Shown here piece after piece: positions 8,661-24,190 of a stretch of DNA of 48,629 bases. The position numbers and the translations under genes were made by a program. Source of the stretch: an uncultured Bordetella sp. (GTDB lineage Bacteria; Pseudomonadota; Gammaproteobacteria; Burkholderiales; SG8-39); the NCBI GenBank assembly GCA_964616875.1, contig CAZTSJ010000201.1, positions 1-48,629 of the forward strand, read 5' to 3'. Under the pieces are notes generated by a model that did not search any database, was not told the DNA's origin, and saw nothing but the letters and a program-made list of their open reading frames with translations. The stretch's first letter is position 1. Each line of letters opens with the position of its first letter.

Positions 8661-8676
8661 GGCTCCTCCTTCGGGT

Positions 8677-9669: not shown

Positions 9670-9709
9670 CGGGGAAATTAGTATACTTTTCCGCTAAGAG
9701 GCCGCGACG

Positions 9710-11475: not shown

Positions 11476-12194
11476 CTCTGCTGGTCGAGCTGGAGTTGCG
11501 CGCTCAACGTCGCTTCCCTGGGCAGTGCGAGAGACAGCACGCGGCCGCCTTTCGCCTGCGAAAGGCACTGGCAGCGGGGAAAATTCAGGTACTGGCCGAC
11601 CCAGGATCCGTCGGCTGCGGCGCGGATGTCGCTCAGCGAAAACACGTCCAGAGGGCTGTTCAATCCGGTCTGCAATGACTTTCCCAGCGCTTCGCGCGCG
11701 GTCCACAGGACACAGCAGGCCGTCGCATCATCCACGCCGCCCGTCGCGAGCCAGGTCAGTTCCGGGGGCGAGGCCCCCAGTTCGCCGATGATGGTTGCGG
11801 CGGAGACGGCAGCGACGGTTTCCAGGTCGATGCCCATCGGGTACTGCGCCGGAAACGCCAGCGCCACCGCGAGACCGTGCGAGTGGCTCACGCTCACCTG
11901 CGTGGCGCCCGCGTGTGGATGCTGCACGAGCGGCTGGCCGTAGATGCCGGAGCGGATTTCGATCCGCCGCAGGTCGGGCTCCTCGAGCAGCGCGCCGAGC
12001 GCGCGCTTGGCGGCCAGGCGGCCCAGCAGGAAGGACTCCTGTTTCGCGGCGAACTTGAAGCCCGCGAGTTGCGCTTTTTCATTCGCGCTGAGGAATTCTT
12101 CTGCCGCTGTCGCCTCCACCGCGGCAAAGCAGATCCGCTGCTCGCTGCCGCCATGGCGCAGTAGCAAAGACTGCACGCCGGATTTCACGCTCAT
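11472..12194 (-). CDS. 4'-phosphopantetheinyl transferase (Sfp type)
   Basis: ATG at 12194 (ATGA overlap with the oleD stop). Motifs GIDLE and WTAREALGK. About 240 aa. Last gene of the pfa-ole run. Confidence 0.85.
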   Translation of the reverse strand: MSVKSGVQSLLLRHGGSEQRICFAAVEATAAEEFLSANEKAQLAGFKFAAKQESFLLGRLAAKRALGALLEEPDLRRIEIRSGIYGQPLVQHPHAGATQVSVSHSHGLAVALAFPAQYPMGIDLETVAAVSAATIIGELGASPPELTWLATGGVDDATACCVLWTAREALGKSLQTGLNSPLDVFSLSDIRAAADGSWVGQYLNFPRCQCLSQAKGGRVLSLALPREATLSAQLQLDQQS

Positions 12195-13180
12195 GGCTTC
12201 CCCGACGCGGCACGCAGGAGTTCCAGGCCCTCGGCGATGGAGATGCGGGGCGAGTATCCGAGGTCGCGGCGCGCCGCCGAGATGTCGAACCAGTGCGCGG
12301 TGGACAGTTCGTGCACCACGAAGCGCGTCAGGCGCGGCTCGTTCTGGTTGCCGGTAATGCGATGCGCGGTTTCGAGGCCCCAGGCCAGCGCCAGCGCGAG
12401 CCAGACGGGCACGGTGCGCGTGACGGGCGGAGCGCCGGCCGCAGCGAGGAGCCGATTCACCATCTCCCACATCGGCACCGGTTCGCCCTGGGAGATGAAG
12501 TAGACCTTGCCCGCGACCGGCGATCCCGGGGCAAGACGGTCCGCTGCAAGCAGATGCGCTTCGGCGGCGTTGTCCACGTAGACGGTATCGATGAGTCTCG
12601 CGCGCGAGCCGATTTTTCTTAGCTGGCCCGCCTTGGCGCGCGCGGCGAGGCGCGGCAGCAGGTGGTTGTCGCCCGGTCCCCAGACCAGGTGCGGCCGCAG
12701 GCTCACGGTTGCGAGTTGCGCATCGTTGGCTGCGCGCACCAGTTGCTCGGCGATCGCCTTGGTCATGGGGTAGTGGGCTTCGAAATTCCGCGGGTAGGGC
12801 GCGGATTCATCCACGCCCTCCATGTCGCGGCCGTCGAAGACGACGCTGGGCGAGCTCGTATAGACCAGGCGCCGCACGCCGTTCTGCCGGCAGGCGGCAA
12901 TCACGTTCTGCGTGCCGGTAACGTTCGGCAGGTGGTAGTCCTCGTAGTTGCCCCAGATGCCGGGCTTCGCGGCGACGTGAAACACGATGTCGCAGCCCTG
13001 CACTGCCGCGGCCACCGCCGCGGGATCGGCGACGTCGCCGCGCACTTGTTCGACGCCGAGCGCTTGCAATCCATCATGCGCCTGGCGCGAGAAGCTGCGC
13101 ACGCTCGCGCCGCGCTCGAGCAGGCCGCGCACGATCGCCTGACCTATGAATCCCCCGCCGCCGGTGACCAGTGCCTTCAT
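12191..13180 (-). CDS. oleD: OleD: NAD(P)H-dependent 2-alkyl-3-ketoalkanoate reductase (3-beta-HSD / SDR-extended family)
   Basis: ATG at 13180 (ATGA overlap with the oleC stop). TGGGGFIG Rossmann motif and YPMTK (YxxxK). Position after oleABC. Confidence 0.85.
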   Translation of the reverse strand: MKALVTGGGGFIGQAIVRGLLERGASVRSFSRQAHDGLQALGVEQVRGDVADPAAVAAAVQGCDIVFHVAAKPGIWGNYEDYHLPNVTGTQNVIAACRQNGVRRLVYTSSPSVVFDGRDMEGVDESAPYPRNFEAHYPMTKAIAEQLVRAANDAQLATVSLRPHLVWGPGDNHLLPRLAARAKAGQLRKIGSRARLIDTVYVDNAAEAHLLAADRLAPGSPVAGKVYFISQGEPVPMWEMVNRLLAAAGAPPVTRTVPVWLALALAWGLETAHRITGNQNEPRLTRFVVHELSTAHWFDISAARRDLGYSPRISIAEGLELLRAASGKP

Positions 13181-14829
13181 TGCAGCTGCCGGCTCGCCCA
13201 CAGCGCGAGTTTGTCGCGAAAGATCTTGGCGTTGTGGCGCACATCCACCGGAAAGGCGGGGTGGAAGAGGAAAGTCTGGATCTGCCGCGTGAGTTCGTGC
13301 TGCGAGCCCAGTTGGCGCAGCTCGGCGCGAATCGCCTCTTTCGACTCGCTGCGCGCAGCGGCCTCCAGCTCCACGCACAGCACCGGCTCGGTCGCGCCGT
13401 TGCGCTGTACGCCGACGAGCGCGGTGCGCAGGACCTTGGGGCAGGTGTTGAACACGCCTTCGCAGGGGTCCGTGAAGCGGGTGCCCTGCGGCGTGATGAC
13501 GCGGTGCGCCTTGCGGCCGCAGAACCACAGGCGGCCCTGCGCGTCGAAATAACCCACGTCGCCCATGCGATGGTAGAAGCCGCCGCTCTCCGGATCCTGG
13601 ATTTTCGCCAGCGCGGTCGCCTCCGGCAGGTTGAAGTACGTCCGCGTCGCGTGCGCCGCCTGCACCGCGATTTCGCCGATTTCGCCGGTGGGCAGTACCA
13701 GCGCCTCGTCCCAGGTTGCGATCGCCTCGTCCGAAATACGGATGATCTTCGCCTTCAACCCGGCCACCGGGCGGCCGACGCATACGCCCGCGCCAAGGTC
13801 ACTAAGCCTGCGCGTTTCGCCGAGGATCTCGTCGCTGCCGATGGAGGCGACCGGCAGGCACTCGGTCGCGCCGTAGGGCGTGAAAACCTGGGCGCCGCGC
13901 GGCAGCATCGCGGCGAAGCGCTCGAGCACTTTTGCCGACATCGGCGCGCCCGCCGAAATGGTGCGGCGAAGCGTGGGCAGCTTGAGCCCTTTCGCCTCGC
14001 CGTAGCGCCCGACGCGATCGAGCAGCGCGGGCGAGCCGAACATGTTGGTGATGCCGAATTTGTGGATCGCGCTGACGATATGCGCCGGATCCGCGCTCGC
14101 CGGACGCGAGGCGTCCATCTCTGGCACCACCGCCGTCATGCCGAGCGCGGGGCCGAAGAGCGCGAAGAGCGGAAAAGTCGCGAGGTCCATTTCCCCCGGC
14201 TCGATGCCGTACAGGCTGCGGATGTGCGCCACCTGCGCGTTGAAGATTTCGTGCGTGTAGACGGCGCCTTTCGGCGTGCCGGTGCTGCCGCTGGTGAAAA
14301 GTATCGCGGCGGTCTCGTCTGGCGAGGGTTCGATGGCAGTGAGCGGTTGGTCGGGCGGGATCCGCTCGCGCAGTGCGCGCAGGGTGTCGCCGCGCCAGAA
14401 CCATTTCGCGCCCACCGTGACATTGATGCGCACGCTCGCGCGCGCCCAACCAAGCAGCACGCGCGCGGCGTGGGCCTTCGGAATCCCGACGAAGGCTTCG
14501 GGCTGCGCATGGGCCAAGCACCCACCGAGGTTGCGCACGCCGATGCCGGGGTCGATCAGCACCGGAACTGCGCCGGCCTTGAAGAGCGCGAAGGTGAGCG
14601 TAAAAAATTCCAGGCCCGGAGGCACCATCAGCGCGGTTCGCATGCCGCGCCGGATGCCGGCCGCATTGAGGGCGAGCGCGGTGCGGTTGCTGGCGTCTTC
14701 GAGCTCGCGAAAGCTGAGTTGTGCGTAGGCGACCGCGCCGCTCGCATCGCGCCCATGCGCGCAGATGACCGCCGGGCGCGACCCTTGCAGCCGCGCCATG
14801 GGCGCGAGGTGCCCCGCGATGTTAGGCAT
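13177..14829 (-). CDS. oleC: OleC: beta-lactone synthetase (AMP-dependent synthetase/ligase family)
   Basis: 550 aa. FTSGSTGTPKG AMP-binding motif. 8-nt overlap with oleB. Synteny oleA-B-C-D. Confidence 0.9.
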   Translation of the reverse strand: MPNIAGHLAPMARLQGSRPAVICAHGRDASGAVAYAQLSFRELEDASNRTALALNAAGIRRGMRTALMVPPGLEFFTLTFALFKAGAVPVLIDPGIGVRNLGGCLAHAQPEAFVGIPKAHAARVLLGWARASVRINVTVGAKWFWRGDTLRALRERIPPDQPLTAIEPSPDETAAILFTSGSTGTPKGAVYTHEIFNAQVAHIRSLYGIEPGEMDLATFPLFALFGPALGMTAVVPEMDASRPASADPAHIVSAIHKFGITNMFGSPALLDRVGRYGEAKGLKLPTLRRTISAGAPMSAKVLERFAAMLPRGAQVFTPYGATECLPVASIGSDEILGETRRLSDLGAGVCVGRPVAGLKAKIIRISDEAIATWDEALVLPTGEIGEIAVQAAHATRTYFNLPEATALAKIQDPESGGFYHRMGDVGYFDAQGRLWFCGRKAHRVITPQGTRFTDPCEGVFNTCPKVLRTALVGVQRNGATEPVLCVELEAAARSESKEAIRAELRQLGSQHELTRQIQTFLFHPAFPVDVRHNAKIFRDKLALWASRQLQ

Positions 14830-15721
14830 GCGGGTGGCGTGCGAAGAAATCGTCGATCAGGGGCAGGATTTCCTTGCCCGCATCCTCCAGCACGTAATGC
14901 CCCGCGTTCGGGAAGTGGTGCACCTCGGCGCCGGGCAGGAAAGTCTGCCACTCGCGCAGGAAGTGATGGTCGAAGACGAAATCCCGGTCGCCCCAGAGGA
15001 TCAGCGTCGGCGTGTTCCGGAACGAGGGCAGCTTGGCCTGCACTTCGCTCACCAGGTCGTAGCTGGGGTCACCGGGTTGGAGCGGAATATCCTGCACGAA
15101 ACGCAGCAGGCCGGTGCGGTCCTGCGGTGCCCGGTAGGGGAGCAGGTAGGCCTCGCGCACGCGCTGCTCCATCGGCCGGCAGACCGCCCAGCGCGCGAGC
15201 AGGCTGGTAAAGAGCCCCGTATCGCGGATGAGCAGTTCGCCCAGAGGCGTCCTGCGGCACAGCCACAGCGTCGCGGGCAGCTTCTTCGTCTTGGGCAGAT
15301 GAAACGCGGCGCTGTTGAGCAGCACCAGGCGGCCGATTTTTTCGGGATAGCGCGTCGCGTAGGCCATGCCGATCATGCCGCCCCAGTCGTGCATCAGCAG
15401 CGTGATCGGTCCGCGCACGTCGGCCTGCTCGATCAGCGCGGCGAGATCGTCGACGCGGCGGCGCAGCGTGTAGTTGTAGCTCTTCTCATCGGGCTTGTCC
15501 GAGAGTCCGCAGCCGATGTAGTCGGGCGCGATGACGCGGTGCCGGTTGCGCAGGCCGAGCACCAGGTCACGGTAGTAGAACGACCAGGTCGGATTGCCAT
15601 GCAGCATCACCACCGTGTCGCCGCGGCCTTCGTCCAGCACATGCAGCTGGTGACCATTCACGTTCCGGTAGGAACCGGTGAACGGATACAGGTCGTGCTG
15701 GAAACGCACGCCCGTCACCAT
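14822..15721 (-). CDS. oleB: OleB: beta-lactone decarboxylase (alpha/beta-hydrolase, haloalkane-dehalogenase-like)
   Basis: ATG at 15721 (MVTGVRFQ...; 7-nt overlap with the oleA end). HGNPTWSFYYR and the HDWGG nucleophile-Asp motif. Confidence 0.85.
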   Translation of the reverse strand: MVTGVRFQHDLYPFTGSYRNVNGHQLHVLDEGRGDTVVMLHGNPTWSFYYRDLVLGLRNRHRVIAPDYIGCGLSDKPDEKSYNYTLRRRVDDLAALIEQADVRGPITLLMHDWGGMIGMAYATRYPEKIGRLVLLNSAAFHLPKTKKLPATLWLCRRTPLGELLIRDTGLFTSLLARWAVCRPMEQRVREAYLLPYRAPQDRTGLLRFVQDIPLQPGDPSYDLVSEVQAKLPSFRNTPTLILWGDRDFVFDHHFLREWQTFLPGAEVHHFPNAGHYVLEDAGKEILPLIDDFFARHPHA

Positions 15722-16758
15722 TCCAGGCCCATCATGAGACAGGTCAGGCCGCTGCCGATGCCCAGGAAACCGACGCGCTCGCCGGCCTTGAGCGCGCCGC
15801 GTTCGGCGGCGATGGCCGCCGTCACGGGCAGCGCAGCGGTGCCCATGTTGCCGAGAAACCGGTAGGTGGTGTAGTCCTTCTCCTTCGGCAGCTGCAGCGA
15901 CTTGAGGATCGCGTCCTGGTGTCCGCTGCCCACCTGGTGGCAGATGACGCGTTCCACCTGCGCCGGAGTCCAGCCCAGTTCGTCGAGGAATACGCGCCAG
16001 GTCTGCTGGCCGAGTTGCACGCCGTATTTCAGCACCGACACCGAATCGGTGGCCATGAACTGCGACTGCTGCAGCCCGGCGGCGGGCGCGAGGCCCCAGC
16101 GGCACAGCGCATGATGCTCCGGCGCGACCTGCGATACGGCGCCGAGCAGGCGATGACCCGGCGGGCCTGAAAACGATCCGTCGGTCAGCAGCATCGCCAC
16201 CGCGCCGGATCCGCCCGTAAAGGTCGCAATCGCCTCGGCGAACTGGTCCATCTCCACGCCCTGCAGCAGGCGCTCGAGCATGATTTCGTTTATTTCCCGC
16301 GCCGATTCGCAGGACACGACGAAGCCGGCGCGGATCTGCCCCAGTTCGATGCGGTTGGCGATCTCGAGCATGCCGTTCAACACGCCCAGGCAGGCGTTGC
16401 TCAGGTCGTAGACCGACGCCGCGCCCTTCACGCCGAGCGCGTCAGCCACCGCGCAGGCGGTCGCCGGCTCGAAGTTTTCACGGCAGACTCCGGCGTAGAT
16501 CACCACCCCGAGGTCGGCGGCCCGGACCGAAGTCTTCGCCATCGCCTTGCGCGCGGCGGCGGTGGCGCCGGCCGAGAGGCGCGCGTCGGGCTGCCACCAG
16601 CGGCGCTCCGCGATGCCGGTCCAGGCTTCGAGCTGGCCGGGCTGGATGCTCAGGCGCTTGTACACCGGCGCGAGCCGCACCTCCAGTTCTGCCGAAGTGA
16701 CGACCTGAGGTCCGAGCTCGTAGCCCAGGGCGGTGAGGAAAACGCGTCTGTATTTCAA
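15715..16758 (-). CDS. oleA: OleA: head-to-head (non-decarboxylative Claisen) acyl-CoA condensing thiolase, FabH-like
   Basis: 347 aa. SNACLG active-site Cys context and a FabH-like fold pattern. TTG start, with an in-frame TGA two codons upstream. Directly followed by oleBCD. Confidence 0.85.
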   Translation of the reverse strand: MKYRRVFLTALGYELGPQVVTSAELEVRLAPVYKRLSIQPGQLEAWTGIAERRWWQPDARLSAGATAAARKAMAKTSVRAADLGVVIYAGVCRENFEPATACAVADALGVKGAASVYDLSNACLGVLNGMLEIANRIELGQIRAGFVVSCESAREINEIMLERLLQGVEMDQFAEAIATFTGGSGAVAMLLTDGSFSGPPGHRLLGAVSQVAPEHHALCRWGLAPAAGLQQSQFMATDSVSVLKYGVQLGQQTWRVFLDELGWTPAQVERVICHQVGSGHQDAILKSLQLPKEKDYTTYRFLGNMGTAALPVTAAIAAERGALKAGERVGFLGIGSGLTCLMMGLEW

Positions 16759-16761
16759 TGG

Positions 16762-16902
16762 TCAGGCCTTCATCCCGCCTGGCGGTTGCCGTGCTTGAAA
16801 ATCTTGGCTGTCTTCATCGACCGCTCCGGACGAATAGATACCGATCAGATCGCCCGCCTGCGCGTGGGCGACAACCGCCAGGAGGGTGAGCAGGAGCGTC
16901 AT
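16762..16902 (-). CDS. Candidate 46-codon micro-ORF with a signal-peptide-like N-terminus (MTLLLTLLAVVAHAQA/GD...)
   Basis: Own translation; the ORF is below the track size cut-off. Its ATG overlaps the lipoprotein stop (ATGA), and its TGA lies 3 nt before the oleA TTG. It fills the whole gap between the two genes. Confidence 0.25.
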   Translation of the reverse strand: MTLLLTLLAVVAHAQAGDLIGIYSSGAVDEDSQDFQARQPPGGMKA

Positions 16903-18053
16903 GGTTTAGAGGTCCGGCACAGATCGGCCGCTAGCGTGCGCTTGGCTTGATGGACGACGACCCGGCAACCGTCGTTGCCGCTTACCAAAGCGGGCGCCTC
17001 TTCGCCAGCATAGCGCATCAGCAGTACCCATTTCCCGTCCCGCAGTGCGTAGAGCCCTCTCGCCTGGGCGCCGACAAGCTTCCCCCAGACGCTGATCAAC
17101 ATCCGTCCGCCAACCAGGAACAGCTTCATGTGGGTGTAGCAGGAGATGCCGCAGGAGAATCCATGGAGCTGGTCCAAAAATCCGTATTCGACCACCCAGG
17201 GACCTGGGGGTACGGAGAGTTCCCGGAAGTTGTCGTCTTCGAGGCTGAAGAGATAAGCGGTCAGGGGCCAGGGGCCTTTGAGCTTCTCAAAATCGCTTGC
17301 CTGCTGGTAGAGCAGATATTTCTTCGCAGCAGCATCGAAAGCGATGCCGTACTTGATGCGGAACCGGGAATTCGCCACCGGGTAGAAACTTCCCTTGCCG
17401 CCCCGCTCCAGATACAGGAGGCGGGAGGTCTCATTCACCCCATTGGGTTTGTCCAGGAGGAAAAGGCTGCCGTGGGTATCGCGCAGGAGGTTGGTGAAAG
17501 TGTAGTGGTAGTCGGAAGCGGTCTGCCAGGTCTCCCCGAGGTATTCCTTTTGGAGCTTCTCGTGTTTCTGGCGCTTCTCTTTGGCTTTGTAATTGAAGTG
17601 GCGCCGGCAGTTGAATTCCCCGCTCCAGGCGGATTCGTCCTCGGGGAGTTGTCCGAGCGACAGCGCCTTCGAGTCCCAGTAGGCGCCGTGTTCGTAGTTC
17701 GTGCTGCCGTTCCGCTCCTTGAGCCGGGCGAAATGGACCACGCCGTTGTCGAGGTCCACGCAATTGATCGAGATGCGGCCGGACTTGACGCGCGGCCCGG
17801 CGCTCTTTTTGCGTAGGTCGTAAGTGAAGAAGGAGTCCTGGTCGTTGAACAGCACGACGTCATCGCCGATCCAGTGGAGGGGGACCCACGAGGGGTCCAG
17901 CGTCACCGCGCCCGGCAGGAGGGCTTCAGGGTCCAGGCTTCTCGAGCAGCCGCAAGCGCCGACGAGGAAGAAGGCCAGCAACAGTCGGCGCAAGTTTTTT
18001 ACCAATGGCGGCTCGCGATGCGACATAAGCACCATTGTGCGCCGTGCGGTCAC
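16899..18053 (-). CDS. Hypothetical lipoprotein (no recognised family)
   Basis: Lipobox FFLVGAC|GCS after a basic n-region (KNLRRLLLAF). GTG at 18053 overlaps the pfaC stop (GTGA); ATGs at 18035 and 18026 are alternative starts. GC content is visibly lower than the flanks. Confidence 0.65.
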   Translation of the reverse strand: MTARRTMVLMSHREPPLVKNLRRLLLAFFLVGACGCSRSLDPEALLPGAVTLDPSWVPLHWIGDDVVLFNDQDSFFTYDLRKKSAGPRVKSGRISINCVDLDNGVVHFARLKERNGSTNYEHGAYWDSKALSLGQLPEDESAWSGEFNCRRHFNYKAKEKRQKHEKLQKEYLGETWQTASDYHYTFTNLLRDTHGSLFLLDKPNGVNETSRLLYLERGGKGSFYPVANSRFRIKYGIAFDAAAKKYLLYQQASDFEKLKGPWPLTAYLFSLEDDNFRELSVPPGPWVVEYGFLDQLHGFSCGISCYTHMKLFLVGGRMLISVWGKLVGAQARGLYALRDGKWVLLMRYAGEEAPALVSGNDGCRVVVHQAKRTLAADLCRTSKP

Positions 18054-21000
18054 GCGTGGATAGATTGTCCTATCCGTTGACGCAGCGTGAAGTCTTTCAT
18101 GCTGTAGATGACGCGGCCATCCACTGAGAGGTAACCGTCGGCGCGCAGCAGGCGCCGCGCTTCATCCACTTCGGTCACTACTGCTTCGACGGTGACCTCG
18201 CGGTCTGTTGGGATAACCTGCCCGCGATACACCCATTCGTGCCGCTCATTGGTCGCGACCGCCTCGTAGTGACCGGCTCCCCAGCGCTCGACGGCGATAA
18301 ACCTGAGCAGCTGCAGGAAGGACTCCAGCCCAAGCGAGCCCGGCACCACCGGGTCCTGGTGGAAGTGCGCCTTGAAGAACCATTCCTCCGGCAGCACGCG
18401 CCGCGTGGCGCGAATGAACCCCAATCCTTTCGGTCCGCCGTCCGGAATCCAGGCATCGATGCGATCGAGCAGGCGCAGCCGGCCGGCGGGAAATGGCGAG
18501 ACCTGCGGGAAATCCAGCGCGCGGCTGCGCGCGAGCTCCTGCGGCGACGGAAGATAGAGCTTCGCGTCCTTCAGGCCTTCCTGCTTCAACAGCGCGACCT
18601 TCGGGAAAAAGCCGAAGTAGGTGTCGCCCTTGTACAGGGATACGCGGCCGGCGAGCACCTCGTAGTCGAAGAACTGGATGATCATGCCCGCGGAACTGGA
18701 GGCGCGCGTGAGTTTCGCGCGCACCGTGAGCGTGCCGCTCTGCGGAACCACGCGCGCCAGCTGCGTCGCGGTGCCGCCCAGATTGCGGAACGACACGTCC
18801 ACCTCGCTCGTCAGCGCCGAGCCCATGTAGGCCGCGAGCCAGCCGCAGGGCTGCAGGGCGATTTCGAGCAGCACCGCGAAGGGCATCTCATCTTGGTGGT
18901 TGGCGGCGAAATACCAGGCGTCCGCGGGCACGTCGTATTGGGTTTCGCACTCGCCGCCGGGAAGAATTTTCCAGGCTTCGGCACGGATCGCGGTGACGCG
19001 GTCGAGGAACTGGTAGGGTGGCCCGGGCAGGCGCGCGATGACGCGACCGGAATCGAAAATCCGGTAGGGCTCGCCAAAAGCTTCGGAGGGCTTGCCCACG
19101 GCGAATGCAAGAATGCGATCGGTGTCGAAGAGCGCCTTTTTCCTGCCTGGGACCGCCCACAGCGCCCTGAAGCTCTCCTGCGTCGCGCCCGCGTAGCGCA
19201 GGCTCATGTTCGTGATCTCGACGATTGGCTTGCCGTCGGCAAGCATCAGCGCGTCGGCGATGACGTAGGGCTCGGGCCGGTAGCCGATTTCCTTGATCGA
19301 GATTTCATAGGTCACGAGCCGCGTCGTGTCGAGCACCTGGCCGCGGCATTTGAGCTGGCTGGCGATGCCCGGCACCGGCTCGAGCACCACCTGGCCCTCT
19401 TCGGCCACCCAGCCCTGGCGCAGCAGGAACACGCGCAAGGTGTGCAGGCAGCACTCGAACATCAGCGTGCCCGGCATGACGCGATCGTCGAAGAAGTGGC
19501 AGGTGAGGAACCAGTCCTCCGGGTGAATATCCGCTTCGCCAGTGATGCTGCCGATGCCGAAGCGCCCCCCAATCGGATCAAGGCGGGCGATGCGATGCAC
19601 CAGCTTCATCCTGCCGCTGGGCAGCGTGACCGGCTTCGCCACCGGCAGCCCGGCAAAGGCCGCGCCAAAGCATCCGGCCAGGTCCCCCGCGCGCAAAGCC
19701 TCGAGCTGCGCCTCCGAATAGCTCTCGACACCGCCGGCGGTGAAATGCTCCCAGTCGGCCGCGCGCTTTCCCGGCGCCGGTTGCATGTCCAGCGCGGTGC
19801 GCACGATGCCTTTGCCGGTCGCCAGTGCTGCAGCGGAGAAGAAGCCCGCGCAGCCCTCGGTCATGGTGAGCAGCGGCGCGCCGTTCACGGTCGCCTCGAA
19901 ACCGAAGCGGAACAGCCAGGTGTCGCTCTGGCGGAAGAAACCGTCGATGCGGATGTCGTAGCGGATCACCTCGCCCGGGCCGGGCAGGCCGCGGTGGAAG
20001 CAGACCTTGGCGTCGAGCAGGCGGTACATGGCGCGGCCGCGCGTCTGAAAATCGATGCCGAGAAAACCCGACAGGAAGAGATCCGCCTGTCCGGCTTCGA
20101 CCGCGATGCAGGTCGGAATGCGCCCGCAGTCGAGATACCAGGCGTCCGGGCGCACGTCGTGCTCGGTCAGCACGCGGCCCTGCGTCATCGACAGCGGTTC
20201 GCCCTCGACGTCGAGAATCCGGTCCACCAGCATGAGCGGCTCATCGGGCAGGCGCACGCGCGTGGGGAAGGAATCGGCCGCGGCGAATTCCGGGCCCAGC
20301 ACGCGGCCGACCGAACCGCGCGCAAATTCGAGACAAGCCGCACGATCAAGTGAACGGATCGGCGCGCTGATTTCAGCCACGGCGACGCTGGCAGAAGCTG
20401 ATTGCGCCGCGATGGCTTGCGCCAATGTTTGCGAGAGGTTTTGCGAAAAGCGCAGATAGGCTTCATGCGCTTCGACGGTCGCTCGTTCTGTTTCGACCAT
20501 CGAGCGGTAAAGGGCAACGGTAAAATCATCTTCCGGCTTCACCCGCGCAGGAATCGCAGGAGCCGTGAACGGCGCTCCGGTGATGGACACGGTGACGCAT
20601 TTGCCGGCGGGCTTTGCCACAGCTGCAGGCGTATCTCGGCGGCGGAGCATTTCTGCGTTCAGCGGCACGCCCGCGGCGTGCAGTTCGGCCAGCGTCCTGA
20701 GGAAATGCCCGACCGGGTCCGGTCCGGCAACCGCGAGCGACCGGGCGAGATGCGGCCGGCCATCGAGGATCCTGTCGATCATGCGGCTGCAGGAATTGCC
20801 GGGACCCATTTCGATGAAGGTGCGCACGCCGGCGTCGTAGGCAGCGCGGATCACGCGCGGGAAATCGATCGAGTCCATCGCCTGCGCCTCGATCGCGTCG
20901 GCGGCGGTTTCGCGCTCCGGCACGTAGGCGCGGCCCCAGGCGCAACTGTAGAACTCCACGCCCGCCGGCGGCAGCGTGTCGAAGCGGTGGAGCTCGCGGT

Positions 21001-24000
21001 AGGCCTGGCGCACCGGGTGCGCGAGTTCGCAATGCACCGTGCTGATGCCCTGGAGGGGGAAGCAGTGACAGCCGAGCGCGGCGATCACTTCCTCGACCAC
21101 GCCGCGCCTGCCGCCGATGACGCACTCATCGGGCGTGTTCGAGATGAGCAGATACACGTGCTTGCGCTTGCCGATGGCGGCGCGCACTTTTTCCGCCGAG
21201 CGGTCGACCACGCCGGTGGCCCATTCCGGGCCGCCCGCCAGGTCCCGCTCGAAAAGCGGCGAGGCGCGCAGCCGCTCGAGCATGGCGTCGCGCTGGCGCC
21301 AGGCGCGCAGCGCCATCAGCGCGGTGGATTCGCCCAGGCTGTAGCCGATCGCAGCGTCGGGCTTCAAGCCGAAGTGCGTCGCGAGGTCGGACAGCATGGC
21401 GCCGAAACAAAGCTGGCCGCAAATCAGGGCGCGATGGTCGCGCAGCACTTCCGGCGCGAGCGGGTTCTGCCAGAACCCGTCGGCATGCATCTGGCTCGCG
21501 AGCTGTGTGTTCTCCGCGTCCTGCCGGCGCAAAATCTCCGGCCACTGCAGCGCGAGCGCGCGGCCCATGTCGCCGAACTGGTTGCCCGAGCCCGGGAATA
21601 CGAAGGCGACGCGCCCTGGCGAAGGGGAATTTTTCGATTTTTCTGTTTGAAAAGCTTTTATATCCAGGTCGGGAAGCGGTCGTGCAGCGTGCGCATGTCC
21701 GCTCTCGTGACTTTCGAGAACCACCTGCACGCGGTCACCCGCCACTCCGGTCGAGTGCACGCTGGTGCGGCGCGGGCCGTCGGCGCGGTTGCGGATCCAG
21801 TAGCGCGGCGCAAGCCCATCGTGCTCGCCCGGCAGTACTTCGTGGTAGAGGCACAGGCTCGCTTTGACGAGCGAGACCAGCCCGGAGGCGGCGCCGGTGT
21901 GCCCGACATCGGCGGCCGCGTCTTCAATGTGTTGCAACGGGGCGGAGCTTGCGGCGCCAGGGTCGCGGATCACGGCGTAGATGCGGTCGCCGTCGCGCTT
22001 GGCATCGCCCAGGCGCTTGAGAAGCACGCAGGCGGCACCTTCACCGGGGATCGTGCCATCGAGAGAATCGGGCTGCAGCGCCTGCGTCGCGAGCAGCGTG
22101 CGCAGGTCGCCGTTCAGGTCCACGCCGCCGGCGAGCGCGGCATCGAGTTCGCGCTTTTGGAGGGCGTGCACGGCCACCTGCAGCGCGCGCAGGCTGGAGG
22201 TTTCTTCGCTCGAAATGCCGTGGCTCGGGCCGCCGATGTGGAATTCGCGCGCCACGCGGCTGGCGACAATGCCGCCCAGCGCGCCCAGGGTGCGGTCGGC
22301 GCTCAGGGGCGGGCCCGCGCCATCGCAGAGTTGCGCCATCCACTGCGCCGCTGCGCTGCTCCCGGCATCGAGGCCGGCCCTGCGCGCCCACTCGGGCGCG
22401 CGTTGCTTCATGGCCCAGCGGAAATGGAAATCGGTGGCGCGCAGGTCAAGGCCGATGCCGATGAACACGCCGCTGCGCGCGGCGTCGAGTTTCGGCTTGC
22501 CGGCGTCTTCCAGCGCGGCCCTGGCGACCTCCAGCATGAGCAGCTGCTGCGGCAGCATCTCCGCCAGCTCGCGCGGCGCGATGTGGAAGCGCTCGATCGG
22601 AATCGACAGGTCGTCGAGGTAATACCCCGGCGAGCCGCCGCCCCAGACGCGCCGGATCTCCTCGGCGCCGAGGCCGCGCCAGCTTTTGCGTTCCGCCGGT
22701 GCAGCAGCGTCCTCTCCGTACAACACTCGCTTCTGGAAAGATTCCAGGTCCGGCCAGCGGCCCACCTGCGCTGCCATGCCAACGACCGCTACGGGTTCAG
22801 GTGAAGGTCTTGAGTGTGCGGTTTGGGGGATCGATTGGCCGAGCCACTCCTCGATCAGCAGGTGGGCGTTGATGCCGCCAAAGCCGAAACCATTGATCGC
22901 GGCGCGGCGCGGCACATCGGCGCCGCGCCGTTCCCACGGCCGGCTTTGCTTGAGTATTTCGAACGGGCTGCCCTCGAGCCCCAGCTTCGCGGCGGGCTGT
23001 TCGTAGTTCGCCACCGGCGGCAGCTTGCCGTGCTGCATCGCGAGCAGCGTCTTGATGAGTCCGGCGCTGCCCGCTGCGGTGAGCAGGTGGCCGATGTTCG
23101 ACTTCACCGCGCTCAGCACGCATTTGGCCTGTTGGCGCTGGCCGCCTTGCCAGAGCTGCTGCAGGCTGTCGAACTCGACTGCGTCGCCCACCGGCGTTCC
23201 CGTGGCATGGCATTCGATCAGGTCCACCATCTGCGGCGTCCAGCCGGCCTGCGCGTAGGCCATGCGCAGGGCGCGCAACTGCCCCTCGGAACTCGGCGAC
23301 AGCAGCTTGCCCTCGAGGTCGTTCGAGAGGCCGACGCCGCGGATCAGGGCGAGGATCCGGTCGCCGTCGCGCCGCGCGTCCGCGAGGCGCTTGAGCACCA
23401 CCACGCCCGCGCCTTCGCCGACGATGAGGCCATCGCCGTTGCGGTCGAAAGGGGCGCAGCGCCCGGTCGGGGAAAGGGCGCGCAACTGCGAGAAACCCAT
23501 TTGCGTGTAGAGCGAGTCCGGGCGCGACAGCCCGCCCGCGAGCATCGCGTCGGCGCGTTGCGCGAGCAGCTCGTCGCAGGCGAGCTTCACCGCGTAGAGC
23601 GACGAGGCGCAGGCCGCATCGAGCGTGTAGCAGGTGCCGCCCAGGCCGAGCGAGCGCGCGAGCAGGCCGGCCGGCAGGCCGGTGACGTAGCGGTTGAGCG
23701 CACTGGTGGCGAAAGACGGCCTTTGGTGCACCCGGCCGAAGACCTTCTGCTCGAAGAGCGGCAGCAGGATTTCGTCGCACAGTGCGGATGCGCCCGCGGT
23801 GGGCAGCGCGATGTTGCCGAGAATGACGCCGACCTTGCCGCGCTCGAGCTTGTCGGTGCGCGCATCGGCGAAGGCCGCCTGCCCGGCGCGCAGCAACAGC
23901 TGGAACATCGGATCGAGTTCGCCCGCAAGCGTTGGATCTTCGATGAAGCAGCCGCGATCGGTGAGGACCGAGTCGGGCGTGCCCGGAATTTGTCCCTGGT

Positions 24001-24190
24001 TTGCCTGCGCATCGAGCAGCCAGCGGCCCGCCGGCACCGCGCGGCAGGCATCGCGGCCCGCTTCGATCAGGCGCCAGAAATCTTCCAGCGAAGACGCGCC
24101 GGGAAAGACGCCGCCCATGCCGACGATGGCGATGGGCTCGGGGAAATTGGCGTTGCCGCCGCCGGGGGACGGCGTGGAATTACTTTTCAA
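18050..24190 (-). CDS. pfaC: PfaC-like PUFA/secondary-lipid synthase subunit with embedded acyltransferase: KS-CLF-AT-DH(FabA-like)-DH(FabA-like)
   Basis: Approximate domain map, with aa numbered from the TTG start at 24190:
- KS, nt 22841..24139 (DAACASS, Cys194).
- CLF, nt 21701..22798 (SEETSS in place of the Cys motif).
- AT, nt 20651..21610 (FPGSGNQ, GYSLGE Ser951).
- Two FabA-type DH modules, each a double hot-dog: nt 19151..20353 (HFFDDRVMPGTLMFE) and nt 18053..19123 (HFHQDPVVPGSLGLE). Confidence 0.9.
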   Translation of the reverse strand: MKSNSTPSPGGGNANFPEPIAIVGMGGVFPGASSLEDFWRLIEAGRDACRAVPAGRWLLDAQANQGQIPGTPDSVLTDRGCFIEDPTLAGELDPMFQLLLRAGQAAFADARTDKLERGKVGVILGNIALPTAGASALCDEILLPLFEQKVFGRVHQRPSFATSALNRYVTGLPAGLLARSLGLGGTCYTLDAACASSLYAVKLACDELLAQRADAMLAGGLSRPDSLYTQMGFSQLRALSPTGRCAPFDRNGDGLIVGEGAGVVVLKRLADARRDGDRILALIRGVGLSNDLEGKLLSPSSEGQLRALRMAYAQAGWTPQMVDLIECHATGTPVGDAVEFDSLQQLWQGGQRQQAKCVLSAVKSNIGHLLTAAGSAGLIKTLLAMQHGKLPPVANYEQPAAKLGLEGSPFEILKQSRPWERRGADVPRRAAINGFGFGGINAHLLIEEWLGQSIPQTAHSRPSPEPVAVVGMAAQVGRWPDLESFQKRVLYGEDAAAPAERKSWRGLGAEEIRRVWGGGSPGYYLDDLSIPIERFHIAPRELAEMLPQQLLMLEVARAALEDAGKPKLDAARSGVFIGIGLDLRATDFHFRWAMKQRAPEWARRAGLDAGSSAAAQWMAQLCDGAGPPLSADRTLGALGGIVASRVAREFHIGGPSHGISSEETSSLRALQVAVHALQKRELDAALAGGVDLNGDLRTLLATQALQPDSLDGTIPGEGAACVLLKRLGDAKRDGDRIYAVIRDPGAASSAPLQHIEDAAADVGHTGAASGLVSLVKASLCLYHEVLPGEHDGLAPRYWIRNRADGPRRTSVHSTGVAGDRVQVVLESHESGHAHAARPLPDLDIKAFQTEKSKNSPSPGRVAFVFPGSGNQFGDMGRALALQWPEILRRQDAENTQLASQMHADGFWQNPLAPEVLRDHRALICGQLCFGAMLSDLATHFGLKPDAAIGYSLGESTALMALRAWRQRDAMLERLRASPLFERDLAGGPEWATGVVDRSAEKVRAAIGKRKHVYLLISNTPDECVIGGRRGVVEEVIAALGCHCFPLQGISTVHCELAHPVRQAYRELHRFDTLPPAGVEFYSCAWGRAYVPERETAADAIEAQAMDSIDFPRVIRAAYDAGVRTFIEMGPGNSCSRMIDRILDGRPHLARSLAVAGPDPVGHFLRTLAELHAAGVPLNAEMLRRRDTPAAVAKPAGKCVTVSITGAPFTAPAIPARVKPEDDFTVALYRSMVETERATVEAHEAYLRFSQNLSQTLAQAIAAQSASASVAVAEISAPIRSLDRAACLEFARGSVGRVLGPEFAAADSFPTRVRLPDEPLMLVDRILDVEGEPLSMTQGRVLTEHDVRPDAWYLDCGRIPTCIAVEAGQADLFLSGFLGIDFQTRGRAMYRLLDAKVCFHRGLPGPGEVIRYDIRIDGFFRQSDTWLFRFGFEATVNGAPLLTMTEGCAGFFSAAALATGKGIVRTALDMQPAPGKRAADWEHFTAGGVESYSEAQLEALRAGDLAGCFGAAFAGLPVAKPVTLPSGRMKLVHRIARLDPIGGRFGIGSITGEADIHPEDWFLTCHFFDDRVMPGTLMFECCLHTLRVFLLRQGWVAEEGQVVLEPVPGIASQLKCRGQVLDTTRLVTYEISIKEIGYRPEPYVIADALMLADGKPIVEITNMSLRYAGATQESFRALWAVPGRKKALFDTDRILAFAVGKPSEAFGEPYRIFDSGRVIARLPGPPYQFLDRVTAIRAEAWKILPGGECETQYDVPADAWYFAANHQDEMPFAVLLEIALQPCGWLAAYMGSALTSEVDVSFRNLGGTATQLARVVPQSGTLTVRAKLTRASSSAGMIIQFFDYEVLAGRVSLYKGDTYFGFFPKVALLKQEGLKDAKLYLPSPQELARSRALDFPQVSPFPAGRLRLLDRIDAWIPDGGPKGLGFIRATRRVLPEEWFFKAHFHQDPVVPGSLGLESFLQLLRFIAVERWGAGHYEAVATNERHEWVYRGQVIPTDREVTVEAVVTEVDEARRLLRADGYLSVDGRVIYSMKDFTLRQRIGQSIHA

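What the first reader, a model, noticed from the sequence alone, without database searches (positions are those of the whole stretch)
16762..18053. Lower-GC orphan lipoprotein plus a coupled 46-codon micro-ORF wedged exactly between pfaC and oleA
Seen in sequence:
- A 384-codon ORF with a clear lipobox (LVGAC) and no family I can recognise occupies the junction between the synthase half and the Ole half.
- Its start overlaps the pfaC stop.
- Its stop overlaps the ATG of a 46-codon ORF (MTLLLTLLAVVAHAQA-GDLIGIYSSGAVDEDSQDFQARQPPGGMKA). That micro-ORF ends 3 nt before the oleA TTG.
- A hand count of a 120-nt sample (about 17115..17235) gives roughly 57% GC, against visibly about 70% GC in the flanking ole and pfa DNA.

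Inference:
- This is a later insertion that has nevertheless been kept in perfect translational register.
- A periplasm- or outer-membrane-facing lipoprotein in a cytoplasmic hydrocarbon pathway suggests a role in trafficking, localisation or envelope deposition of the hydrophobic product, or a role as a scaffold.
- Neither a lipoprotein nor a secreted peptide is part of the canonical Pfa or Ole systems.
Basis: partly seen in the sequence, partly recalled or inferred. Interest (0 to 1): 0.7.

Follow-up and report, generated by a model that had tools for sequence, protein, structure and literature searches.

The report
Inserted propeller lipoprotein plus deletion scar
The gene wedged between the fatty-acid synthase and olefin genes is a real but unrelated, horizontally mobile lipoprotein that landed in an insertion-prone spot, and the tiny 46-codon "gene" after it is only the scar left by deletion of a toxin-antitoxin pair.

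Summary
The sequence features are real; all lie on the minus strand.

- **Lipoprotein gene (16899-18053):** it lies between pfaC and oleA and has about 60% GC against about 68% in the flanks. It encodes an exported, cysteine-rich, roughly seven-bladed beta-propeller (AlphaFold pLDDT 88) with a family-conserved lipobox. It matches no Pfam, NCBIfam, PHROGs, PADLOC or PDB sequence family.
- **It is an insertion:** in 45 of 80 related pfa-ole loci pfaC abuts oleA directly, including the closest ones (92-93% OleA identity). None of the 80 carries this gene.
- **No link to pfa/ole elsewhere:** homologues are rare. Every context recovered lacks pfa/ole genes, no neighbour recurs, and each copy has lower GC than its flanks. 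Two copies with 96% DNA identity share no flanking DNA.
- **Micro-ORF (16762-16902):** it is not a gene. Bases 16841-16775 are 97% identical to the 5' end of a vapB antitoxin gene that sits upstream of oleA in relatives, read in another frame. Its last three sense codons (one differs) and its stop are vapC's. A 572-nt deletion joined the two.
- **Hot spot:** the junction carries varied cargo in relatives (vapBC, an ISL3 transposase, methyltransferases, efflux genes).

Verdict: a passenger gene plus a scar, with no evidence of a Pfa/Ole role.

The parts
16899..18053 (-). Gene for an exported, lipid-anchored, cysteine-rich beta-propeller protein of an undescribed family. This is the longest ORF (GTG start). 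Alternative starts are ATG 18035, ATG 18026 and TTG 18005.
   Evidence: ORF. Homologues at 48-63% identity have an invariant lipobox Cys and invariant C301, C305, C363 and C379. AlphaFold2 with 35 sequences gives pLDDT 87.8 and pTM 0.83, all-beta. Foldseek finds only generic WD40-type propellers. No Pfam, NCBIfam, PHROGs, PADLOC or PDB sequence hit.
17946..18053 (-). Signal peptide with lipobox: n-region K19, R22, R23; h-region LLLAFFL; then VGAC34-GC36|S. C36 (17948-17946) aligns with the invariant lipidated Cys of the family.
   Evidence: Alignment A1 and N-terminal comparison. The pattern was read from sequence; SignalP and LipoP were not available.
16762..16902 (-). 46-codon 'micro-ORF'. 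It is not a gene. It is a chimeric open frame running across window-unique DNA, a vapB 5' relic read out of frame, and the last codons plus stop of vapC.
   Evidence: for the homology. GC3 is 0.68 against 0.83-0.87 in real genes. 27% of shuffles stay open in this frame. No homologue lies downstream of any lipoprotein homologue.
16775..16841 (-). Relic of the 5' UTR and first ~13 codons of an AbrB/MazE-type vapB antitoxin gene. The relic ORF at 16817-16770 reads MKTAKIFKHGNRQAG*.
   Evidence: 97% identity over 67 nt to L023 9345-9411 and 94% over 70 nt to L027. L023 9372-9590 matches Pfam MazE_antitoxin. Frame translation.
16759..16774 (-). Relic of the vapC (PIN toxin) 3' end: its last codons and stop codon (window ATGAAGGCCTGA; L023 GTGAAGGCCTGA), plus the 3-nt spacer. 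It contains the SD-like GAAGG for the oleA TTG start. The deletion junction is at about 16775/16774.
   Evidence: Window 16775-16600 continues at L023 9984-10159, so 572 nt of L023 are missing. The vapC end sequence is compared. L023 9587-9997 matches Pfam PIN. The AAGGCCTGA-N3-TTG motif is shared by L022, L023, L025, L026, L029 and L030, with a variant (AAGGCCTGTGCATTG) in L031.
16842..18082 (-). Window-specific inserted DNA (~1.24 kb): the last ~9 codons of pfaC (QRIGQSIHA*), the lipoprotein gene, and 57 nt downstream of it.
   Evidence: Homology to other pfa-ole loci ends at ...KDFTLR on the pfaC side (A3) and resumes at 16841-16844. Collinearity with L020, L018, L028 and L034 breaks exactly here.
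18050..24190 (-). pfaC-type PUFA synthase subunit (KS, KS-like, AT, two FabA-type DH domains); the upstream flank.
   Evidence: Pfam and NCBIfam hits.
15715..16758 (-). oleA (thiolase-type condensing enzyme, TTG start); the downstream flank.
   Evidence: NCBIfam PRK09258 full-length match, 474 bits; Pfam ACP_syn_III_C.

Best explanation
The pfaC|oleA boundary of this pfa-ole cluster is a spot where foreign DNA has repeatedly been inserted and deleted. The cluster probably belongs to a Rokubacteria-like bacterium. That taxon is inferred from where the lipoprotein homologues occur; it was not tested for the window.

**Ancestral state and history.** Ancestrally the two genes overlap or abut and are translationally coupled. 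In the lineage of the window, a vapBC toxin-antitoxin module once sat immediately upstream of oleA. Later, 572 nt of it were deleted. What remains is the vapB 5' end fused to the last codons of vapC. That fusion, together with 57 nt of adjoining DNA, happens to stay open in one frame and reads as the '46-codon micro-ORF'. The short retained vapC tail carries the Shine-Dalgarno-like GAAGG and the spacing that oleA's TTG start now uses. This explains why it survives in all insertion-type alleles.

**The lipoprotein gene.** It is separate, horizontally acquired cargo of about 1.2 kb. No promoter-like or terminator-like site was found on its strand within it, so it is presumably transcribed by read-through from the pfa genes (inferred). 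It would be translated by coupling to the pfaC stop or by re-initiation a few codons downstream (inferred). By the usual lipoprotein pathway (inferred), its product would be exported by Sec and lipidated at the conserved lipobox cysteine. It would be held together by up to three disulfides from six conserved cysteines. It would sit on the periplasmic side of a membrane as a roughly seven-bladed beta-propeller, most likely a binding platform rather than an enzyme. Its ligand is unknown. Nothing ties it to Pfa/Ole chemistry, so it is a passenger.
For: **Insertion**
- The window is collinear with L020 except for ~18085-16738.
- pfaC abuts oleA (50 nt or less) in 45 of 80 loci and lies 51-200 nt away in 12 more. 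No locus has a lipoprotein homologue.
- The same pfaC-lipoprotein-spacer-oleA junctions appear in two independent public assemblies (L013, L014). An assembly chimera is therefore unlikely.

**Scar**
- Window 16841-16775 is 97% identical to the vapB 5' end of L023. The alignment then jumps 572 nt to the vapC end and oleA (alignments).
- Pfam identifies L023 VapB as MazE_antitoxin and VapC as PIN.
- The vapB relic peptide MKTAKIFKHGN... is visible in a different frame from the micro-ORF.

**Hot spot**
- L023 carries 6.4 kb at the junction: DLH, MFS, HlyD, a MetA-like outer-membrane protein, a 2-hydroxyacid dehydrogenase and vapBC.
- L027 carries an ISL3 transposase, vapBC and a TylF methyltransferase.
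- L025 and L026 carry methyltransferases, and L037 a methyltransferase. L022 carries sugar-nucleotide genes. L031 carries an ABC binding protein and a chalcone-isomerase-like gene.

**Mobility of the lipoprotein gene**
- Only 5 homologue clusters exist among 5.8 billion proteins, plus 3 GTDB loci.
- Every context differs and no neighbour is shared.
- Each copy has lower GC than its flanks by 4-17 points.
- L001 and L015 share 95.9% DNA identity from the lipobox exactly to the stop codon, and nothing outside it.
- L015 and L017 share homology from ATG-4 to the stop codon only.

**Real exported propeller**
- Conserved lipobox and cysteines.
- Eighty-five longer family members were inspected. Most begin with a hydrophobic signal- or anchor-like N-terminus, and 19 have a lipobox-like motif.
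- Confident AlphaFold model and propeller matches.

**No internal signals**
- The consensus scan found no promoter-like site. Its only terminator-like hit lies on the opposite strand and is within chance. No Rfam match was found.
Against: - Function was never tested. Co-transcription with pfa/ole could still expose the protein to selection for a pathway-related role in this one lineage.
- Only gene neighbourhoods were examined. Whether genomes carrying homologues also carry pfa-ole clusters elsewhere was not tested.
- The consensus promoter scan does not cover non-sigma-70 promoters.
- The order of events (lipoprotein gain versus vapBC loss) is not resolved.
- Closely related OleA sequences (92-93% identity) carry the uninterrupted junction, while the vapBC-bearing loci are at 85-88% OleA identity. 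The history therefore involves recombination or repeated events, not a simple tree.
- The start codon, and hence translational coupling to pfaC, is uncertain.
Confidence: 0.8

Rival explanations
1. The lipoprotein has been recruited as an accessory component of the Pfa/Ole pathway. It would handle, localise or deposit the hydrophobic product in the envelope, and is kept in the operon for co-expression.
For: - It sits inside an otherwise tightly coupled operon, with a possible GTGA overlap with pfaC and no terminator-like site on its strand.
- The gene is intact.
- There is a precedent for an accessory gene between pfa and ole operons: pfaT in Photobacterium profundum (PMC6463001).
- Some homologue neighbourhoods contain lipid-related genes. 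Examples are a PlsC-type acyltransferase in L001, UbiA/UbiE in L015, an alpha/beta hydrolase in L010 and a thiolase in L098. Such genes are common, so this is weak.
Against: - None of the 80 related pfa-ole loci has it.
- None of the homologue loci examined carries pfa or ole genes.
- The same junction carries unrelated cargo in relatives.
- The Pfa and Ole enzymes are cytoplasmic, whereas this protein is exported.
- The gene shows the signature of a mobile, compositionally foreign gene.
Confidence: 0.08
2. The 46-codon ORF is a genuine, translationally coupled small secreted peptide.
For: - ATGA overlap with the lipoprotein stop.
- A hydrophobic N-terminus with an AxA-like motif (AHA-QA).
- The public gene caller called it in L013.
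Against: - Residues 22-46 are encoded by vapB 5' sequence read in the wrong frame, plus the last codons of vapC.
- No Shine-Dalgarno sequence and no positively charged n-region.
- GC3 is 0.68, against 0.83-0.87 for the neighbouring pfaC, pfaA and ole genes, and another frame of the spacer scores higher (0.74).
- Open frames of this size occur at 6.4 per kb in the window, and 27% of shuffles are open.
- No homologue lies downstream of any lipoprotein homologue.
- No hit in any profile library.
Confidence: 0.03
3. The pfaC-lipoprotein-oleA arrangement is ancestral, and the lipoprotein gene was lost in the other lineages.
For: None specific. Gene loss is common in principle.
Against: - It would need dozens of independent precise deletions that restore an overlapping pfaC/oleA junction across 54-93% OleA divergence.
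- The gene is compositionally foreign.
- The vapB/vapC relic shows that the region downstream of the gene is itself secondary.
Confidence: 0.02
4. The arrangement is an assembly chimera that joins a low-GC gene from another organism into the cluster.
For: There is an abrupt GC drop and no flanking homology with other copies.
Against: - Two independent assemblies of different sequencing runs (L013 from SRR9952632, L014 from SRR9952630) are 100% identical across the gene. L013 spans all the junctions (pfaC end, lipoprotein gene, spacer, oleA start). L014 spans the gene and the spacer.
- All reading frames are intact across the junctions.
Confidence: 0.02

Closest known systems
PfaT (Orf6) thioesterase gene between the pfa and ole operons of Photobacterium profundum SS9 (PMC6463001)
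   Same: It is a non-core gene located between the PUFA-synthase genes and the ole genes.
   Different: - PfaT is a small cytoplasmic thioesterase. It is genetically linked to pfa and/or ole in many lineages, and mutants show reduced EPA or hydrocarbon.
- The gene here is an exported beta-propeller lipoprotein found at this junction only in this window. No linkage exists elsewhere, and there is no thioesterase domain.
Beta-propeller lipoproteins of the bacterial envelope, e.g. BamB (comparison from general knowledge)
   Same: An N-terminal lipobox signal peptide followed by a single beta-propeller domain of about 350 residues. The likely role is as a periplasmic binding platform.
   Different: - No sequence match to any Pfam family, including PQQ-like/BamB repeats, at E<=1.
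- BamB is not among the top 50 PDB fold matches. The best matches are eukaryotic G-beta WD40 chains, with TM-scores of only 0.3-0.45.
- About seven blades are predicted.
- It has six conserved cysteines in the mature domain, including a CxxxC motif (GFSCGISCY).
- The family is rare and patchy rather than a conserved housekeeping component.
VapBC (AbrB/MazE-type antitoxin plus PIN toxin) modules
   Same: The spacer downstream of the lipoprotein gene holds the 5' UTR and first ~13 codons of vapB, and the last codons and stop of vapC. These are near-identical to the intact modules in L023 and L027, and the intact vapC 3' end is also seen in L029.
   Different: Only a 67-nt and a ~12-nt fragment remain. 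No functional toxin or antitoxin can be made.
Genomic-island or integration hot spots with variable cargo, and integron-type gene cassettes
   Same: One chromosomal position carries different accessory genes in close relatives, including an IS element and a TA module. The lipoprotein gene itself moves as a roughly gene-sized unit.
   Different: - No integrase, tRNA, attC-like element or flanking direct or inverted repeats were found.
- The site lies inside a biosynthetic operon.
- The boundaries of the exchanged lipoprotein segment coincide with the ORF itself. This is not how integron cassettes are delimited.

Membership tests
Bacterial lipoprotein (Lgt/LspA substrate) | N-terminal signal peptide with a positively charged n-region and a hydrophobic h-region, ending in a lipobox [LVI][ASTVI][GAS]C | tested here: met
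   The window reads KNLRRLLLAFFLVGAC34GC36S. The homologues have canonical LAGC|S or LAAC|S, and the cysteine is invariant. This is a pattern and conservation test only; SignalP and LipoP were not available.
Beta-propeller fold | Toroidal arrangement of 4-stranded antiparallel beta-sheet blades | tested here: met
   The AlphaFold2 model has pLDDT 87.8 and pTM 0.83, with about 28 strands grouped in blade-like sets. Foldseek gives probability 1.0 to WD40 and other propellers in the PDB and BFVD libraries. The blade count of ~7 was inferred from the strand list, not from coordinates.
WD40 repeat family (sequence family) | Recognisable WD40 repeat motifs matching the Pfam WD40 models | tested here: not met
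   The window protein has no Pfam hit at E<=1. One of 35 family members gave a marginal WD40_CDC20-Fz hit at E=0.0038.
BamB | Eight-bladed propeller with PQQ-like repeats; a conserved component of the BAM complex | tested here: not met
   No Pfam or NCBIfam hit. BamB chains are absent from the top 50 PDB fold matches. The family is rare: 111 representatives at E<=0.001 among 1.84 billion.
Pfa/Ole pathway component | Recurrent genomic linkage with pfa or ole genes across lineages | tested here: not met
   0 of 80 pfa-ole or ole loci carry a homologue. None of the homologue loci carries pfa or ole genes. These are L001-L012 and L015-L017 by tblastn, and L098-L100 by the called-gene tables.
PfaT thioesterase | Hot-dog-fold acyl-CoA thioesterase domain | tested here: not met
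   No Pfam or NCBIfam domain of any kind. The predicted fold is a propeller.
Protein-coding gene (applied to the 46-codon ORF) | Conservation of the reading frame in relatives, a coding-type composition, and a translation start signal | tested here: not met
   The homologous DNA in L023 and L027 is coding in a different frame, as vapB. GC3 is 0.68 against 0.83-0.87. No Shine-Dalgarno sequence is visible. The ORF is within chance expectation.
VapBC toxin-antitoxin module (applied to the spacer) | An intact AbrB/MazE-type antitoxin gene followed by an intact PIN-domain toxin gene | tested here: not met
   Only the first ~13 vapB codons and the last ~3 vapC codons remain. 572 nt are missing relative to L023. 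It is a relic, not a module.
Integron gene cassette | An ORF followed by an attC recombination site, arrayed next to an integron integrase | tested here: not met
   No conserved element lies downstream or upstream of the homologues. No notable flanking repeats were found in the window. No integrase was seen in the neighbourhoods annotated.

The most novel reading that the evidence does not exclude
This undescribed family of cysteine-rich beta-propeller lipoproteins may be exchanged between Rokubacteria genomes as an ORF-precise unit.
- Homology at 96% DNA identity begins at the lipobox, or 4 nt before the ATG in another pair, and ends exactly at the stop codon.
- The surrounding contexts are completely different, and GC is 15-17 points below the host.
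- This would imply a gene-sized transfer or replacement mechanism with no recognisable mobile-element hallmarks. One possibility is recombination anchored on the near-universal lipobox DNA (CTCGCCGGCTGC).

The tandem GAC-GC cysteines in the window copy could be a scar of such an event. The pfaC|oleA junction would then be one of its landing sites, within a broader insertion hot spot.
Probability: 0.2. Interest if true: 0.55.

Novelty: new member of a known kind. Interest (0 to 1): 0.25.

Why it matters
- **It removes a tempting false lead.** Neither the lipoprotein nor the 'secreted micro-peptide' is evidence for an envelope-trafficking step in PUFA-derived olefin biosynthesis.
- **It gives a worked example of a misleading ORF.** A deletion scar of a toxin-antitoxin module can look like a translationally coupled small ORF in high-GC DNA. 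Its spacing to the next gene is preserved because that gene's ribosome-binding site now lies in the scar.
- **It shows unexpected plasticity.** The pfaC|oleA boundary is normally an overlapping, coupled junction, yet it is variable in one clade.
- **It adds a protein family.** It defines an uncharacterised, rare, compositionally foreign family of exported beta-propeller proteins. The unusually sharp exchange boundaries of this family may merit a separate look.

Tried and rejected
- **Profile libraries.** Pfam, NCBIfam, PHROGs and PADLOC gave no hit for either ORF.
- **PDB sequence searches.** Neither the single sequence nor the 35-sequence profile gave anything significant.
- **First AlphaFold run.** With only 6 sequences it was unusable (pLDDT 51). 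It was replaced by the 35-sequence run.
- **Second word-indexed protein search.** Using the family profile, it added only one protein.
- **Rfam scan and RNA folding of the spacer.** No family matched. The folding z-score was -1.5, which is not significant. I therefore rejected a structured RNA or riboswitch reading. I also treat the inverted repeat at 16774-16791 / 16869-16886 as a probable coincidence.
- **Promoter/terminator scan of 16500-18400.** No promoter-like site was found. The single terminator-like hit lies on the opposite strand and is within chance.
- **Search for repeats flanking the insertion.** Only short, chance-level matches were found.
- **Search for a conserved cassette boundary upstream of the homologues.** None was found.
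- **Is the alpha/beta hydrolase next to the closest homologue (L010) an OleB?** It is 37% identical to OleB over 118 residues. However, it scores as a generic haloalkane-dehalogenase/epoxide-hydrolase-type N-terminus, is truncated, and has no oleA, oleC or oleD nearby. I rejected it as evidence of Ole linkage.
- **A recurring partner gene.** The dCache/AAA_22 gene that overlaps the start in L001 is not found next to any other homologue.
- **A weak 47-nt match** between window 18050-18005 and L023 7122-7168 (E = 7e-4) was not pursued.
Full report
**1. Observation**

All features lie on the minus strand.
- The gene order is pfaD (~30284-32014), pfaA (24180-30467), pfaC (18050-24190), the 384-codon ORF (16899-18053) and the 46-codon ORF (16762-16902).
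- It continues with oleA (15715-16758, TTG start), oleB (to ~15724), oleC (13177-14829), oleD (~12191-13180) and a phosphopantetheinyl transferase (11472-12470).
- The GTG at 18053 overlaps the pfaC TGA as GTGA. The lipoprotein TGA overlaps the micro-ORF ATG as ATGA. The micro-ORF stop lies 3 nt before the oleA TTG.
- The gene is 60.3% GC (300-nt minimum 56.3%), against 67.6-68.1% for pfaC, pfaA and oleA. GC3 is 0.78 against 0.83-0.87.

So the description is accurate, with two caveats.
- The start codon is ambiguous. GTG 18053, ATG 18035 (the public gene caller's choice, P0001), ATG 18026 and TTG 18005 all precede a normal lipoprotein signal peptide.
- The family-invariant cysteine is C36 in ...VGAC-GC|S, not the C34 of 'LVGAC'.

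**2. The 384-aa protein is real, exported, and belongs to an undescribed family**

- It has no Pfam, NCBIfam, PHROGs or PADLOC match, and no PDB sequence match.
- A search of 5.8 billion proteins found only five homologue clusters, at 48-63% identity. A scan of GTDB genomes found three loci. Two are in Rokubacteria MAGs and one is in a MAG labelled Thermoanaerobaculia.
- A full HMMER profile search of 1.84 billion representatives found 111 relatives at E<=0.001. Six score below 1e-30.
- Most members are 300-420 residues long. Most of the 85 longer members inspected begin with a hydrophobic signal- or anchor-like N-terminus, and 19 have a lipobox-like motif. Most carry 6-10 cysteines.
- The close homologues have a canonical LAGC|S lipobox. 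They also share invariant C301-x3-C305 (GFSCGISCY), C363 and C379. Across the wider family P282, G284, P285, W286, C363 and C379 are invariant.
- AlphaFold2 with six sequences failed (pLDDT 51). With 35 family members it gave a confident all-beta model (pLDDT 87.8, pTM 0.83).
- Foldseek matches only generic beta-propellers (G-beta and other WD40 chains, galactose-oxidase-type) with low TM-scores. No specific relative appears in the PDB or the viral library.
- I read it as a lipid-anchored, disulfide-bonded periplasmic propeller of about seven blades. It is most likely a binding platform. This is inference from fold and composition, not a test.

**3. It is an insertion**

A metagenome scan with OleA returned 80 loci at 54-93% OleA identity. 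Mapping the window's proteins onto them gave the following.

| Junction state | Loci |
|---|---|
| pfaC C-terminus within 50 nt of the oleA start, often overlapping (e.g. ATGGGTTATAA in L020 and L028) | 45 |
| Gap of 51-200 nt | 12 |
| Insertion of 1.9-6.4 kb with pfaC visible upstream | 3 |
| No pfaC within at least 1 kb upstream | 13 |
| Too short to tell | 7 |

- No locus contains a homologue of the lipoprotein.
- At the DNA level the window is collinear with L020 at 86-88% identity, from pfaA through pfaC (28051-18086) and from oleA through oleD (16737-12203). The intervening ~1.35 kb corresponds to 28 nt in L020.
- On the pfaC side, homology among loci stops after ...KDFTLR. The last nine pfaC codons of the window (QRIGQSIHA*) are therefore part of the junction DNA.
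- Two independent public assemblies (L013, L014) are 100% identical to the window across the gene. L013 spans all the junctions, from the pfaC end to the oleA start, which argues against a chimera.

**4. The micro-ORF is a deletion scar**

- tblastn of the 46-residue peptide hit only L023 and L027, with residues 22-46.
- In L023 an AbrB/MazE-type vapB (Pfam MazE_antitoxin) and a PIN-domain vapC sit immediately upstream of oleA. The vapC stop lies 3 nt before the oleA TTG.
- blastn shows window 16841-16775 is 97% identical to L023 9345-9411, the vapB 5' UTR plus its first 13 codons. Window 16775-16600 then continues at L023 9984-10159, the last vapC codons, the stop, the 3-nt spacer and oleA (alignments).
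- The window therefore lacks 572 nt of vapBC.
- The vapB relic reads MKTAKIFKHGNRQAG* (16817-16770) in a frame different from the micro-ORF. The micro-ORF's final MKA* corresponds to vapC's VKA*.
- The 5' 57 nt of the micro-ORF lie in window-unique DNA.
- The motif AAGGCCTGA-N3-TTG is shared by the insertion-type alleles, including L022, L023, L025, L026, L029 and L030; L031 has the variant AAGGCCTGTGCATTG. It holds an SD-like GAAGG eight nt before the oleA TTG. Its preservation is best explained by oleA translation, which is an inference.
- Independent tests agree that the micro-ORF is not coding:
  - GC3 is 0.68, and another frame scores higher.
  - No Shine-Dalgarno sequence is visible.
  - 27% of shuffled spacers stay open in this frame, and the window has 6.4 ORFs of at least 46 codons per kb.
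  - No homologue lies downstream of any lipoprotein homologue.

**5. The junction is a hot spot**

Relatives at 83-89% OleA identity carry different cargo at the same place.
- L023: dienelactone hydrolase, MFS and HlyD efflux genes, a MetA-like outer-membrane protein, a 2-hydroxyacid dehydrogenase and vapBC.
- L027: an ISL3 transposase, vapBC and a TylF-type methyltransferase.
- L025 and L026: methyltransferases.
- L037: a methyltransferase whose start overlaps the pfaC end.
- L022: sugar-nucleotide enzymes plus a diverged vapBC scar.
- L031: an ABC substrate-binding protein and a chalcone-isomerase-like protein.

**6. The lipoprotein gene is mobile and unlinked to pfa/ole**

The homologue contexts are as follows.

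| Locus | Neighbours |
|---|---|
| L001-L008, L016 (24 contigs) | Lhr helicase, DUF488, dCache/AAA_22, then the lipoprotein, DUF6306 ... PlsC-type acyltransferase |
| L015 | UbiA, UbiE, a 258-aa ORF, then the lipoprotein, REP-like repeats, PTPS, radical SAM |
| L009 | Na/H exchanger and HlyD |
| L010 | a truncated generic alpha/beta hydrolase |
| L098 | thiolase and Glu-tRNA synthetase |
| L099 | hypothetical proteins |

- No neighbour recurs, and none of these loci has pfa or ole genes.
- Every close copy has lower GC than its flanks: L001 51.9 vs 67.4%, L015 50.9 vs 68.3%, L017 54.0 vs 66.4%, L010 57.6 vs 63.7%, L012 59.0 vs 65.5%, L011 61.6 vs 66.7%, L009 66.7 vs 70.5%.
- Distant members sit in genomes of 37-52% GC.
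- L001 and L015 are 95.9% identical over 1059 nt, from the lipobox codons exactly to the stop codon. They are unrelated outside that span. L001 and L017 (84.9%) show the same limits. L015 and L017 (84.6%) match from 4 nt before the ATG to the stop.
- I found no repeats, attC-like element or integrase that would explain this. It remains unexplained and forms the basis of the novel case.

**7. Mechanism and comparison with known systems**

What is shown:
- the insertion;
- the scar;
- the hot spot;
- the lack of linkage to pfa/ole;
- the propeller fold;
- the conserved lipobox.

What is inferred:
- read-through transcription, since no promoter-like site and no same-strand terminator-like site was found;
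- translational coupling or re-initiation after pfaC;
- Sec export, lipidation and disulfide formation;
- a binding rather than a catalytic role;
- the Rokubacteria origin of the window.

The nearest precedent for a gene between pfa and ole is pfaT of Photobacterium profundum (PMC6463001). However, pfaT is a cytoplasmic thioesterase with recurrent linkage and a phenotype. BamB-type propeller lipoproteins resemble this protein in architecture only.

**8. Verdict**

- The finding is a real gene of an uncharacterised family that is a passenger in the operon, followed by a pseudo-ORF that is a toxin-antitoxin deletion scar.
The functional inference and the micro-ORF reading are not supported.
- Interest is low to moderate.
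- The remaining curiosity is the ORF-precise, compositionally foreign exchange of this lipoprotein gene among Rokubacteria.

Noticed in passing
L001 10052-11110 vs L015 10043-11101; L015 10000-11101 vs L017 53-1154: Copies of the lipoprotein gene in unrelated genomic contexts share 96% and 85% DNA identity. The homology begins at the lipobox (or 4 nt before the ATG) and ends exactly at the stop codon, with no flanking homology and 15-17 points lower GC than the host. The mechanism of such ORF-precise exchange is unknown.
   Followed up: partly
window 17946-17960 (minus strand): The window's lipobox region reads VGAC-GC|S, with two cysteines two residues apart. All close homologues have a single LAGC|S. 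This could be a recombination scar at the lipobox or simply a substitution.
   Followed up: no
L022-L031 and L037, immediately upstream of oleA: The pfaC|oleA junction is an insertion hot spot in relatives at 83-89% OleA identity. It carries vapBC, an ISL3 transposase, TylF-type and other methyltransferases, an MFS/HlyD efflux set, sugar-nucleotide genes and an ABC binding protein. Relatives of similar identity elsewhere keep an overlapping pfaC/oleA junction.
   Followed up: partly
window 16759-16772 and the equivalent positions in L022, L023, L025, L026, L029, L030, L031: All insertion-type alleles keep AAGGCCTGA-N3-TTG (the vapC tail) directly before oleA, with a variant in L031, and use a TTG start. 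Uninterrupted alleles use ATG or GTG starts that overlap or closely follow the pfaC stop. The vapC tail seems to have become oleA's ribosome-binding region.
   Followed up: partly
window 11477-12202 and 8264-11490: Further indel polymorphism lies downstream of oleD. The phosphopantetheinyl-transferase segment (11477-12202) is absent from L020 but present in L023 and L028. Window ~11490-8264 is present in L020 but absent from L023 and L028. The cluster's surroundings are mosaic among close relatives.
   Followed up: no
window 18058-18075: A perfect 6-bp palindromic hairpin (GGATAG-N6-CTATCC) lies in the window-specific last codons of pfaC, just upstream of the lipoprotein start. Its significance is unknown.
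   Followed up: no
window 16774-16791 and 16869-16886: An 18-nt inverted repeat (16 of 18 complementary) links the vapB relic to the window-unique DNA after the lipoprotein stop. The spacer's RNA fold is not significantly more stable than shuffles (z = -1.5).
   Followed up: yes
L015 11116-11197, 11722-11806, 13360-13465, 8792-8834; L001 1125-1174, 3159-3213: GC-rich palindromic REP-like repeats (GGGGAGAGGG... / ...CCCTCTCCCC) are scattered in intergenic regions of two different Rokubacteria contigs. One cluster lies directly after the lipoprotein stop in L015.
   Followed up: no
L001 7926-10004 and 10001-11110 (also L002-L008, L016): In the Rifle Rokubacteria population the lipoprotein gene's TTG start overlaps by 4 nt the stop of a 692-aa dCache_1/AAA_22 gene. 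Its signal-peptide region is unrelated to that of the 88%-identical L015 protein. The mature domain therefore appears grafted behind a different N-terminus.
   Followed up: partly
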